From assembly GCA_016186395.1 (NCBI GenBank), contig JACPLU010000003.1, positions 148,022-212,021 of the forward strand: a stretch of 64,000 bases of DNA, in the 5' to 3' direction. Positions within the stretch are counted from its first letter, which is position 1. Each line of letters begins with the position of its first letter. The notes under the pieces are model-generated. The model saw nothing but the letters and a program-made list of their open reading frames with translations. It searched no databases and had not been told where the DNA came from. The translations under genes were made by a program, and so were the position numbers. This DNA is from Parcubacteria group bacterium. Its GTDB lineage: Bacteria > Patescibacteriota > Minisyncoccia > 2-02-FULL-40-12. This document shows, in pieces, positions 23,664 through 24,905 of this stretch.

Positions 23664-24905
23664 TTGAAGATTATTTTTATTAAACTTTCCATAATTTTAG
23701 TCTTTATTGTTTTGTTTTGTATGTTTTTTCCTGTTCTCGTTTTTGCTGCTGAACCCAATCCTCTCTCCTCCTCTGACGTTAATCTCAACTATCTCTTGAC
23801 TGATCATCTAGGTTCAACCCGTGTAATAATCGACGAGAAAGGTAAAGAGCTTCAAAGATTTGATTACTACCCATACGGCGAGGCTATCACTGAAAAAGTG
23901 ATAGCCGAGTCCTCCGAAGCCTTGGCGAAGGAGGAGGAAGAAGAAAAATTAAGATTCACTGGGAAGGAACGAGATAAAAATACCACTCTAGACTATTTCG
24001 GAGCACGATATCTTACTACAAATCTGGGTAGATGGGTTAGTGTGGATCCGATACAAGATGGATGGAACAGATATGGGTATGTTTCAAATAATCCTATCAA
24101 TTTAAGAGATAGGAATGGACTACAAAGTTTAGTGGCTCCTCCTCCAGGAGAACTGACACGCATGAGAAAAGTTCTAAATAATTCTATCAAAAAAGGAAAT
24201 AAAAAAGTCAAACTTTCTAGTCAAGCAAATCTTTTAGACATCGGGAGTAATATTTATTCTATTCCTTCAGAAAAATCAGGCTTTTCAGCTATAACAAACG
24301 CGTTGCAATCTAAATTTGGATCCCATAATGTAGTCGCACAGTCTTTACCAATCTTATTTTCTAAAACAGAGGTAAAAGACATACTCAAAGACCTTTCTAA
24401 TTTTAAAATAGGGTCCTCACTCATTGCAAAATTTTCAAAAATTCTAGAAAAGTATAGTGACGATCAAACTTTCTTTTTAGATGAAGGTCAAAATCAAGTG
24501 TACGCAGGAACCGTAGAGTATGAAATTCCTAAAAATGTTGGACTATTAATAACGAGTGGCCATGCGACTCAAGGAGCTGACCTCGCAGAGATGCTTAAAC
24601 TATTTCAACACAATGGTTTAGAAAAATTAGGCACTTTAATATCTAGTACTTGCGTGGGGATATGTGCATTAGAAAGCACTGAATTTCAAAACCAAGCAGA
24701 TATTCTTGACCTTGATAGATTCATATCTTATGGCACTAAGGGTGCGGATGCTGTTACGGGAAAATTCTTATCAGAAATACTGAAACAAGCCGGGCCAATT
24801 GTTAATCTTAAGATTTGGCTTGACGGAAAAAAATGGGGACATGGACAGATTAATAATTTAAATAAAGGTTTTCGGCTCGAGTACATCAACTCTGATCTAC
24901 CTTAG
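23664..24905 (+). CDS. RHS repeat-associated core domain plus a C-terminal toxin domain of about 260 aa and unassigned family (start codon uncertain: TTG at 23664 or internal ATG)
   Basis: Core signature: NLNYLLTDHLGSTRVIIDEKGKELQRFDYYPYGE...LRFTGKERDKNTTLDYFGARYLTTNLGRWVSVDPI...YGYVSNNPINLRDRNGL. A divergent C-terminal domain follows (ITSGHATQGADL, STCVGICALEST). Confidence 0.65.
   Translation: MKIIFIKLSIILVFIVLFCMFFPVLVFAAEPNPLSSSDVNLNYLLTDHLGSTRVIIDEKGKELQRFDYYPYGEAITEKVIAESSEALAKEEEEEKLRFTGKERDKNTTLDYFGARYLTTNLGRWVSVDPIQDGWNRYGYVSNNPINLRDRNGLQSLVAPPPGELTRMRKVLNNSIKKGNKKVKLSSQANLLDIGSNIYSIPSEKSGFSAITNALQSKFGSHNVVAQSLPILFSKTEVKDILKDLSNFKIGSSLIAKFSKILEKYSDDQTFFLDEGQNQVYAGTVEYEIPKNVGLLITSGHATQGADLAEMLKLFQHNGLEKLGTLISSTCVGICALESTEFQNQADILDLDRFISYGTKGADAVTGKFLSEILKQAGPIVNLKIWLDGKKWGHGQINNLNKGFRLEYINSDLP

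What the first reader, a model, noticed from the sequence alone, without database searches (positions are those of the whole stretch)
24129..24905. Unclassified ~260-aa toxin domain downstream of the RHS core
The segment after the predicted autoproteolysis site (...NNPINLRDRNGL|QSLVAPPPGE...) has no motif I can assign to the common Rhs C-terminal toxin families.
- It shows no HNH/GHH nuclease motif, EndoU motif, deaminase HxE/CxxC or ART R-S-E pattern.
- Conserved-looking candidate catalytic residues include ITSGHATQGADL, STCVGICALEST and WGHGQ.

Polymorphic toxin C-terminal domains are a known reservoir of novel enzymatic folds. One in a CPR-like episymbiont-type genome with no linked immunity gene is a candidate new effector family.
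Basis: inference. Interest (0 to 1): 0.6.

Follow-up and report, generated by a model that had tools for sequence, protein, structure and literature searches.

The report
Orphan cargo of split Rhs toxin
A small gene in a Parcubacteria genome encodes a signal peptide, the self-cleaving "plug" end of an Rhs toxin and a 260-residue cargo domain that matched nothing in the roughly 15 billion public proteins searched; it sits next to a separate gene for the Rhs shell, so it is probably a swappable toxin cartridge whose activity is still unknown.

Summary
ORF 23664-24905 (+) carries an Rhs-associated core (TIGR03696, E 3e-21). After DRNGL153 comes a 260-aa C-terminal domain (24123-24902). This domain has no hit in Pfam, NCBIfam, PADLOC, PHROGs, PDB sequences, plasmids or phages. 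Two searches of about 15 billion proteins found no relative except itself. Two AlphaFold runs failed (pLDDT 37), so the fold and activity remain unknown.

It does behave as polymorphic-toxin cargo. The only close relative (P0003, 65% identical core) switches to an unrelated HELGH-containing domain at the same boundary.

The 1881-aa shell (YD repeats plus Kelch propeller) ends at 23469, and a dispersed palindromic element follows. The finding's ORF then starts with its own signal peptide. The relative's contig carries two such signal-peptide cassettes 10 nt apart, with no immunity gene between them.

Best reading: a Sec-exported "plug plus cargo" cartridge for a separately exported shell, analogous to TcB/TcC. 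The cargo is 28 kDa with pI 8.7. A Cys/His hydrolase activity is only a motif-level guess.

Verdict: a new variant of a known kind, of moderate interest.

The parts
17824..23469 (+). Shell gene (ORF1, 1881 aa). It has an N-terminal signal-peptide-like segment, YD/RHS repeats and an inserted Kelch beta-propeller (about residues 850-1140). It ends ...VLSVFEKKPEVFGQ* without any Rhs core or plug.
   Evidence: ORF. RHS_repeat E 2.9e-35 and Kelch families down to E 5.7e-18. YD_repeat. PDB hits to Rhs cocoons 7q97, 8h8a and 8qjb, and to Kelch proteins. TIGR03696 does not hit this ORF.
23482..23633 (.). 152-nt copy of a dispersed palindromic element that fills the spacer between the shell gene and the cartridge gene. 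The spacer has stop codons in every frame. TAA 23467-69 and TAA 23655-57 flank the element.
   Evidence: RNA fold -86.5 kcal/mol, z -7.7; five copies in the window, with a central hairpin that differs between copies through compensatory changes; three-frame translation.
23664..23747 (+). Predicted Sec signal peptide of the cartridge gene (residues 1-28, MKIIFIKLSIILVFIVLFCMFFPVLVFA|AEP), read from a TTG start. NCBI's ATG start at 23721 would cut it in half.
   Evidence: Sequence read directly. Alignment A3: both cassettes of the relative have an equivalent K-rich n-region, a hydrophobic core and a small-x-A site. These segments diverge in sequence while the mature part is about 65% identical. 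No signal-peptide predictor was available, so this is an inference.
23748..24122 (+). Rhs C-terminal core or 'plug' (residues 29-153): NYLLTDHLGS...YYPYGE...FTGKERD...LDYFGARY...VDPIQDGWNRYGYVSNNPINLRDRNGL. The candidate catalytic aspartates are Asp128 (24045-24047) and Asp149 (24108-24110).
   Evidence: TIGR03696 E 3.1e-21, residues 68-153; best PDB matches are TccC2/TccC3 (E 1.7e-14). (PMC8765631): RhsA catalytic D1324 and D1346 lie 22 residues apart, with cleavage 4 residues after the second. Here the aspartates are 21 apart, with 4 residues to L153.
24108..24122 (+). DRNGL motif. Self-cleavage is predicted after Leu153, between 24122 and 24123.
   Evidence: aligns with DENGL at the C-terminal end of solved chain 6l7i_G, and with DPDGL|M of TccC3; similarity to P0003 stops here (RDLNGN). 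Cleavage itself is inferred, not shown.
24123..24902 (+). The finding: a 260-aa orphan C-terminal (hypervariable) cargo domain, Q154-P413. It is about 28 kDa with pI 8.7. The N-terminal half is basic (pI 9.6) and the C-terminal half is acidic (pI 5.6). The stop codon is at 24903-24905.
   Evidence: no homologue and no family; mass, pI and open-frame probability; codon usage. GC 0.355 against 0.415 in the core.
24561..24563 (+). His300 (VGLLITSGH300ATQG), a candidate catalytic histidine after a predicted beta-strand.
   Evidence: Sequence. The strand-loop-helix context comes only from low-confidence AF2 secondary structure. Motif-level inference.
24651..24665 (+). Cys330 and Cys334 (GTLISSTC330VGIC334ALEST), the only two cysteines of the domain and the candidate nucleophile.
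   Evidence: Inference only.
24840..24842 (+). His393 (KKWGH393GQ), in a predicted C-terminal beta-hairpin. It is the alternative catalytic histidine in a papain-like Cys-then-His order.
   Evidence: Inference only.

Best explanation
The 413-aa ORF is a self-contained 'plug plus cargo' cartridge of a two-gene (split) Rhs toxin in a Parcubacteria genome.

**What is shown**
- It has an Rhs core with both candidate aspartates and a TccC-like DxxGL end.
- The upstream 1881-aa ORF supplies the YD shell and a Kelch propeller but has no core.
- Joined in silico, the two ORFs align without a gap to ordinary one-piece Rhs proteins.
- The nearest relative has the same signal-peptide/core unit with an unrelated cargo, and a second such unit 10 nt downstream.

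**What is inferred**
- Both proteins are exported by Sec.
- The cartridge's N-terminal strands and plug complete the shell outside the cell.
- The aspartyl autoprotease cuts after Leu153, leaving the 28-kDa basic cargo (Q154-P413) enclosed until delivery.
- The absence of an immunity gene means the target is another organism, plausibly the episymbiont's host, rather than kin.

**Activity of the cargo**
- The biochemical activity is unknown.
- My best guess, at about 20-25%, is a thiol hydrolase (protease, deamidase or amidase).
- It would use either a clan-CD-like His300/Cys330 dyad or a papain-like Cys330(334)/His393 pair.
For: **Core and cleavage motif**
- TIGR03696 E 3.1e-21.
- Alignment to TccC2/TccC3 ends at the solved cleavage site.
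- The aspartate spacing is like RhsA D1324/D1346.

**The split is clean**
- A chimeric query (ORF1 end plus mature ORF2 start) is covered 97-100% by single Rhs proteins such as P0007, P0004 and P0009.
- PDB chains span the junction: 9pt5_A covers query residues 14-268 and 7q97_A covers 48-261.

**Cartridge architecture recurs and the cargo is swapped**
- P0003 and the next ORF in L001 each have a signal peptide and a core of about 65% identity.
- The cargo domains are unrelated: BLASTP E 0.54. P0003 has HELGH and a weak Peptidase_M91 hit.
- Among 121 Rhs-core hits, only P0001 and P0003 combine a hydrophobic N-terminus with an early DHLGS motif.

**The ORF is maintained**
- Open-frame P about 1e-8. 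Genome-like codon usage appears only in this frame.

**Cargo properties fit cocoon cargo**
- It is 28 kDa with pI 8.7, and the N-terminal half has pI 9.6.
- Tc hypervariable regions are about 30 kDa (35 kDa at most), need pI >= 8, and have an N-terminal 128 residues of pI 9.75 (PMC6868009).

**Precedent**
- One shell pairing with several separately encoded C subunits is known for YenB with YenC1/2/3 (PMC11067744).

**No immunity gene**
- Convergent YkuD lies 30 nt downstream. The two L001 cassettes are separated by only 10 nt.
Against: - No homologue exists, so no residue conservation, covariation or selection test is possible for the cargo.
- Both AF2 models are unusable (pLDDT 37). Foldseek finds nothing (best E 0.23, TM 0.24).
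- No caspase, C80, CHAT or papain-type Pfam model hits. His300 is followed by Ala rather than the Gly usual in clan CD (own knowledge).
- Assembly of shell and cartridge is pure inference.
- The L001 contig is cut 211 nt upstream of its first cassette. A shell gene there is suggested only by about 17 weakly similar codons (...GEKPEVAE*), which include an in-frame TAG.
- No promoter-like or Shine-Dalgarno site precedes ORF2. Only about 10 of 56 ORFs in the window show one, however.
- The strongly folded spacer element could block co-transcription.
- The family is known from just two samples.
Confidence: 0.5

Rival explanations
1. Stand-alone secreted mini-Rhs toxin. The cartridge works without the shell. 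The 125-residue core serves only as a self-cleaving release module and recombination handle, and the cargo acts extracellularly or after its own uptake. The adjacent shell gene would then be a separate or defunct partner.
For: - Each cassette has its own start codon and signal peptide, and cassettes occur in tandem with no shell gene between them.
- The shell ORF has its own stop, and a strongly structured spacer follows it.
Against: - The core's first strands (NYLLTDHLGS...YYPYGE) continue the shell's YD-repeat register exactly.
- In solved Rhs proteins this region spirals into the cocoon and seals it (PMC8765631). It is unlikely to fold alone.
- The shell ORF lacks any plug of its own.
Confidence: 0.2
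2. Broken gene. A once-continuous Rhs gene was interrupted by insertion of the dispersed palindromic element. The downstream piece is then an untranslated or decaying remnant, and its 'signal peptide' is a chance product of T-rich sequence.
For: - The spacer holds a mobile-looking repeat with five copies in the window.
- The element is 152 nt, so its removal would put ORF2 in frame with ORF1.
- No Shine-Dalgarno or promoter-like site precedes ORF2.
Against: - Stop codons lie outside the element on both sides (23467-69 and 23655-57), so excision does not restore one ORF.
- All other copies of the element are intergenic.
- In the relative, the spacer upstream of the first cassette is unrelated in sequence. 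Both its cassettes still begin with signal-peptide-like segments aligned to ORF2's.
- 413 codons stay open (P about 2.5e-13), with genome-like codon usage.
Confidence: 0.1
3. The cargo is not an enzyme toxin. Q154-P413 would be a non-catalytic payload: a host-binding or pore-forming module, or a mosaic that includes an Ig-like segment.
For: - No catalytic family matches.
- A 41-residue stretch (SNFKIGSSLIAKFSKILEKYSDDQTFFLDEGQNQVYAGTVE) resembles SbsA-type Ig repeats of P0002.
- The two halves differ sharply in charge.
Against: - The P0002 E-value is inflated by adding nine repeat copies. The best single copy scores 12 bits, and Pfam Big_5 does not hit.
- No transmembrane or amphipathic signature was seen.
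- The C-terminal position after the Rhs cleavage site is occupied by enzymes in all characterised cases (PMC3482391; own knowledge).
Confidence: 0.15

Closest known systems
TcB/TcC cocoon of ABC (Tc) toxins, e.g. TcdB2-TccC3 and YenB with YenC1/2/3
   Same: - The RHS cocoon is built from two separately encoded polypeptides.
- The second polypeptide carries the aspartyl-autoprotease plug and a hypervariable cargo of about 30 kDa with basic pI.
- Several alternative C subunits can serve one shell, and there is no immunity gene.
- The shell protein contains a beta-propeller.
- TccC2/TccC3 are the best solved-structure matches of the core (PMC11067744; PMC6868009).
   Different: - The split point differs. 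TcC contributes about 680 residues of shell, whereas here the cartridge contributes only about 125 residues (the plug).
- Both proteins here carry Sec-type signal peptides.
- No TcA-sized gene is in the 64-kb window: the next largest ORF is 901 aa.
- The propeller is Kelch-type.
- The organism is a CPR bacterium rather than an insect pathogen.
Classical one-piece Rhs/WapA polymorphic toxins with orphan rhs-CT cassettes
   Same: - YD shell, a core ending in a DPxGL-like motif, and a sharp switch to an unrelated C-terminal domain between relatives.
- Extra cassettes lie downstream.
- Sec export, as in Gram-positive WapA (PMC3482391).
   Different: - The shell and core are in different ORFs.
- The cassettes are complete genes with start codons and signal peptides, not promoterless fragments awaiting recombination.
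- No immunity gene follows any of the three cassettes seen.
P0003 (ENA ERZ28563803, contig L001), the only close relative
   Same: A signal peptide plus an Rhs core about 65% identical to the window's, with the same boundary before the cargo.
   Different: Its cargo is an unrelated 245-aa domain with a HELGH zincin motif and a weak Peptidase_M91 hit at E 0.31.
Tox-Caspase / clan CD peptidases (caspase, legumain, C80 CPD), and papain-like toxin domains
   Same: - Resemblance by eye only. His follows a hydrophobic strand (VGLLITSGH), then a helix, then Cys follows a second hydrophobic stretch (GTLISSTC).
- Alternatively, the order is Cys, then His393, then Asp411.
- Caspase-like domains are known as terminal toxin domains of polymorphic toxins (PMC3482391).
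   Different: - No profile match and no usable structure.
- His is followed by Ala, not Gly.
- The His-Cys spacing is 30 residues.

Membership tests
Rhs / YD-repeat polymorphic toxin | Rhs-associated core domain ending in a DPxGL-type self-cleavage motif with two aspartates | tested here: met
   TIGR03696 E 3.1e-21 at residues 68-153. Asp128 and Asp149 are present. DRNGL aligns with DENGL/DPDGL of TccC2/TccC3. The Pro of DPxGL is replaced by Arg.
Rhs / YD-repeat polymorphic toxin | YD-repeat shell and core on one polypeptide | tested here: not met
   The shell ORF stops at 23469. A 194-nt spacer with stops in all frames follows, and the core ORF starts at 23664.
Rhs / YD-repeat polymorphic toxin | C-terminal domain varies between close relatives, switching at the core boundary | tested here: met
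   The P0003 core is about 65% identical up to RDxNG, and unrelated after it.
Rhs / YD-repeat polymorphic toxin | Cognate immunity gene immediately downstream on the same strand | tested here: not met
   The next gene is a convergent YkuD 30 nt away. In L001 the next gene, 10 nt away, is another cassette.
Rhs / YD-repeat polymorphic toxin | Autoproteolytic release and toxicity of the C-terminal domain | not testable with these tools
   Needs expression, mass spectrometry and toxicity assays.
ABC (Tc) toxin BC subcomplex | Cocoon formed by two separately encoded proteins, the second carrying plug and cargo | tested here: inconclusive
   The gene arrangement fits, but physical assembly is not shown. 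The split lies about 125 residues before the cleavage site, not about 680.
ABC (Tc) toxin BC subcomplex | TcA translocator partner (>2000 aa) encoded nearby | tested here: not met
   No other ORF in the 64-kb window exceeds 901 aa. Neighbours 14781-16514 and 17053-17820 have no TcA-type Pfam hit. The rest of the 239-kb contig was not available.
Tox-Caspase / clan CD cysteine peptidases | Profile match to a caspase-fold family (C14, C13, C11, C25, C80, CHAT) | tested here: not met
   No Pfam family at E<=10 for the whole domain or either half. No PDB sequence hit.
Tox-Caspase / clan CD cysteine peptidases | His then Cys, each at the end of a hydrophobic beta-strand in an alpha/beta sandwich | tested here: inconclusive
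   The motif is present by eye (His300, Cys330). Secondary structure comes only from models with pLDDT 37. Foldseek is uninformative.
Known Rhs C-terminal toxin families (HNH/GHH, EndoU, deaminase, ART, and others in Pfam/NCBIfam) | Profile match or signature motif | tested here: not met
   No hits. XopAK at E 0.04 over 39 residues is below any threshold.

The most novel reading that the evidence does not exclude
A CPR bacterium builds an Rhs cocoon outside the cell from two Sec-exported pieces: a shell protein and interchangeable 'plug plus cargo' cartridges that each carry a signal peptide. The cartridge in this window would deliver an enzyme of a wholly new fold to the episymbiont's host, which would explain why no immunity gene is needed.
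Probability: 0.2. Interest if true: 0.7.

Novelty: new variant of a known kind. Interest (0 to 1): 0.45.

Why it matters
- Unclassified Rhs C-terminal domains are common, so the orphan domain alone is a modest lead. What sets it apart is that it is a true singleton among about 15 billion proteins.
- The split into a shell gene and signal-peptide-bearing plug-plus-cargo cartridges is the more unusual part.
- If real, it means an Rhs cocoon can be completed in trans after Sec export, at a split point different from TcB/TcC.
- It would also give reduced CPR episymbionts a cheap way to swap payloads aimed at their hosts.
- It offers a small, testable system: two genes, a defined cleavage site and four candidate catalytic residues. 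This could address how cargo gets loaded into Rhs shells and what weapons CPR bacteria use.

Tried and rejected
**Homologue and family searches for the cargo domain (all empty)**
- Pfam, NCBIfam, PADLOC and PHROGs on the whole domain and on both halves.
- PDB sequence searches and tblastn against plasmids and phages.
- The word-index search and the exhaustive phmmer search.

**Hits rejected as artefact or chance**
- P0002 (E 8.5e-10) is an artefact. It has nine SbsA-Ig-like repeat copies each matching the same 41 residues, and the best single copy scores 12 bits.
- XopAK at E 0.04 is rejected as chance. No paper in the library links XopAK to a deamidase.

**Structure**
- AF2 on the whole domain and on its last 151 residues both gave pLDDT 37.
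- Foldseek of the second model against the PDB gave a best E of 0.23 and TM 0.24, which is meaningless.

**Searches for more relatives**
- The genome-contig scan gave only Rhs cores of 50% identity or less, from Acidobacteriota, Bacteroidota and similar phyla.
- A degenerate DNA pattern for KELQRFDYYPYGE found nothing in JGI metagenomes.
- An alignment-based metagenome scan gave hits of 36% identity or less.
- A search with the last 481 residues of the shell gave relatives of 34% identity or less. It apparently returned no long proteins, so it could not test whether other shells end at the same point.

**Ideas rejected**
- Read-through or frameshift fusion of ORF1 and ORF2: the spacer has stops in all frames.
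- The spacer as a self-splicing intron: it is too small, it matches no Rfam family, and its other copies are intergenic.
- Simple excision of the 152-nt element restoring one ORF: stops flank it on both sides.
- The 106-aa ORF at 25615-25935 as an immunity gene: it is separated from ORF2 by a convergent gene and has no family hit. It was not pursued further.
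Full report
**1. What is there**

The region lies in a 413-codon ORF (23664-24905, +). NCBI annotates it from an internal ATG as a 394-aa 'RHS repeat-associated core domain-containing protein' of a Parcubacteria group MAG, MBI2626957.1.

Residues 68-153 match the Rhs-associated core model TIGR03696 (E 3.1e-21). The best solved-structure matches are the C subunits of Photorhabdus Tc toxins, TccC2 and TccC3 (E 1.7e-14). The alignment runs from ...NLNYLLTDHLGS to ...NNPINLRDRNGL153. It ends exactly where the solved, self-cleaved TccC2 chain ends (...NNPVSLQDENGL) and where TccC3 is cut (DPDGL|M).

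Asp128 and Asp149 are 21 residues apart, with 4 residues from the second to Leu153. This mirrors the catalytic D1324/D1346 and the cleavage point of P. protegens RhsA (PMC8765631).

The variable domain is therefore Q154-P413, 24123-24902.

**2. Is it real coding sequence?**

An open frame of this length has P about 1e-8 at this base composition. A codon-usage log-likelihood trained on 23 long ORFs of the window is positive only in this frame. The values are +0.27 bits/codon here, against +0.22 for the shell gene and -0.2 or lower for the other five frames. GC drops from 0.415 in the core to 0.355 in the domain. Such a drop is common for swapped toxin modules (own knowledge).

**3. Can the domain be classified?**

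No.
- Pfam (whole domain and both halves, E<=10), PADLOC and PHROGs give nothing.
- NCBIfam gives only a 39-residue XopAK match at E 0.04.
- PDB sequence searches give nothing better than E 0.3.
- tblastn against plasmids and phages gives nothing.
- The word-index search of 5.8 billion protein clusters returned only the protein itself.
- The exhaustive phmmer scan of 1.84 billion representatives returned itself plus P0002.

P0002 is a 2098-aa protein of SbsA-Ig-like repeats. Nine copies each match the same 41 residues, and the best single copy scores 12 bits, so the summed E-value is an artefact.

Two AlphaFold2 runs without an alignment gave pLDDT 37. Foldseek on the second model was uninformative, with best E 0.23 and TM 0.24.

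The domain is a genuine singleton.

**4. Evidence that it is swappable cargo**

A query joining the end of the upstream ORF to the mature start of this ORF found one close relative, P0003 (398 aa, ENA metagenome, contig L001).
- P0003 has a hydrophobic signal-peptide-like N-terminus.
- Its Rhs core is about 65% identical up to ...NPINGRDLNG.
- It then carries a domain unrelated to the window's (BLASTP E 0.54). That domain has a HELGH zincin motif and a weak Peptidase_M91 hit.

A sharp switch at the core boundary between close relatives is the defining behaviour of polymorphic-toxin C-termini (PMC3482391).

**5.
- The 1881-aa ORF1 (17824-23469) has a signal-peptide-like start, YD repeats and a Kelch propeller, but no core.
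- It stops at ...VLSVFEKKPEVFGQ*. A 194-nt spacer with stops in every frame follows.
- ORF2 then begins MKIIFIKLSIILVFIVLFCMFFPVLVFA|AEPNPLSSSDVNLNYLLTDHLGS.
- Ordinary Rhs proteins and solved structures align across the in-silico junction without a gap: 97-100% coverage for P0004, P0007 and P0009; 9pt5_A over residues 14-268; 7q97_A over residues 48-261. Nothing is missing, and the break falls in a loop just before the plug.

In contig L001, P0003 is followed after 10 nt by a second ORF with the same layout: MSKPITIITFLTLTFLMMTKSSAVFA|SKINPLSPSDVTINYLLTDHLGS....

In all three cassettes the N-terminal 25-30 residues have diverged in sequence. They keep a basic start, a hydrophobic core and a small-x-Ala site, while the mature part is about 65% identical. 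That is how signal peptides evolve. It also favours the TTG start over NCBI's ATG.

Among the 121 best Rhs-core hits, only P0001 and P0003 have this architecture.

The 56 nt at the start of L001 weakly resemble the end of ORF1 (...GEKPEVAE*). The contig is cut there, so a shell gene upstream is only suggested.

**6. The spacer**

Positions 23482-23633 are one of five copies in the window of a roughly 150-nt palindromic element. Its RNA fold is -86.5 kcal/mol with z -7.7.

The outer stem and inner arms are conserved. The central hairpin differs completely between copies yet stays paired: 16 predicted pairs overall show changes on both sides, about a dozen of them in this hairpin. No Rfam family matches.

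All other copies are intergenic. Removing the 152 nt would restore the frame, but stop codons lie outside the element on both sides. The split is therefore not a simple insertion scar.

**7. Most likely mechanism**

Shown:
- the domain order;
- the split;
- the swapped cargo in the relative;
- the absence of an adjacent immunity gene. The next gene here is a convergent YkuD 30 nt away, and in L001 it is another cassette 10 nt away.

Inferred:
- both proteins are exported by Sec;
- the cartridge's first strands and plug complete the shell outside the membrane;
- the aspartyl protease cuts after Leu153;
- the 28-kDa cargo is held in the cocoon until delivery to a non-kin target, plausibly the host of this episymbiont.

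The cargo's size and charge fit the rules established for Tc cocoon cargo. It is 28 kDa with pI 8.7, and its N-terminal half has pI 9.6. Tc cargo is about 30 kDa, needs pI >= 8, and has a basic N-terminal 128 residues (PMC6868009).

One shell serving several separately encoded C subunits is documented for YenB with YenC1/2/3 (PMC11067744).

For the activity I can only offer motif-level guesses.
- VGLLITSGH300-(helix)-GTLISSTC330 resembles the His/Cys dyad of clan CD peptidases. These peptidases are known as terminal toxin domains (PMC3482391).
- Cys330/334, then His393, then Asp411 would fit a papain-like order.

Neither guess is supported by any profile or model.

**8. Rivals**
- A stand-alone secreted mini-Rhs toxin that needs no shell (0.2).
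- A broken gene left by the repeat element (0.1). This is disfavoured by the stops flanking the element, the recurrence of the architecture with a different spacer, the intact frame and the native codon usage.
- A non-enzymatic payload (0.15).

**9. Comparison and novelty**

The system works most like a TcB/TcC cocoon. It is not a member of that family as defined:
- no TcA-sized gene is in the window;
- the split is about 125 rather than about 680 residues before the cleavage site;
- both parts have signal peptides.

It meets the Rhs core and variable C-terminus criteria. It fails 'one polypeptide' and 'adjacent immunity gene'.

I rate it a new variant of a known kind. The orphan domain alone would be an ordinary unclassified Rhs C-terminus. 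The cartridge architecture in a CPR genome raises the interest to moderate (0.45).

Noticed in passing
window 80-283, 8852-9008 (-), 23482-23633, 32638-32787, 54965-55116: A dispersed palindromic element of about 150 nt has five copies, all intergenic. The outer stem (GAATAATACTCTT...AAGAGTATTATTC) and inner arms are conserved. The central hairpin differs completely in sequence between copies yet stays paired, with about a dozen pairs changed on both sides. The copy at 80-283 has an extra 47-nt insert. No Rfam match. It could be a REP/MITE-like repeat, an mRNA 3'-end or stabiliser structure, or an undescribed small RNA.
   Followed up: partly
L001 1418-1774 (and L001 212-1408): The relative's contig carries two signal-peptide/Rhs-core cassettes in tandem, 10 nt apart, with no immunity gene between them. 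The first has a HELGH zincin-like cargo. The second is cut off by the contig end. Upstream of the first is a different palindrome (GGAGGCAAAGATT...AATCTTTGCCTCC).
   Followed up: partly
window 23664 vs 23721: The public annotation (MBI2626957.1, 394 aa) starts at ATG 23721 and so removes half of the predicted signal peptide. Alignment with the relative's cassettes supports the TTG start at 23664.
   Followed up: yes
window 11062-11162, 11514-11614, 12389-12489: A 101-nt repeat (92-98% identical) fills three consecutive spacers between minus-strand genes. By their sequences these look like the ribosomal protein S4 / RNA polymerase alpha / L17 / L13 / S9 cluster (read by eye, not profile-tested). 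This is a second, unrelated family of intergenic repeats.
   Followed up: no
window 17053-17820 (+): A 255-aa ORF ends 4 nt before the shell gene. It has a signal-peptide-like start, a Cys-rich middle and one transmembrane segment near the C-terminus, and only a weak LPXTG-anchor-like hit (E 0.06). It may be a surface partner or anchor of the Rhs system.
   Followed up: no
window 24936-25478 (-) and 25615-25935 (+): A convergent YkuD L,D-transpeptidase with its own signal peptide lies 30 nt after the cartridge gene. It is followed by a 106-aa ORF with a strong AAGGAGG ribosome-binding site and no family match. Neither is positioned like an immunity gene.
   Followed up: partly
window 17824-23469, residues about 850-1140: The Rhs shell carries an inserted Kelch-type beta-propeller. 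This resembles the propeller gate of TcB and the propeller of teneurins, but it comes from a different repeat family.
   Followed up: partly
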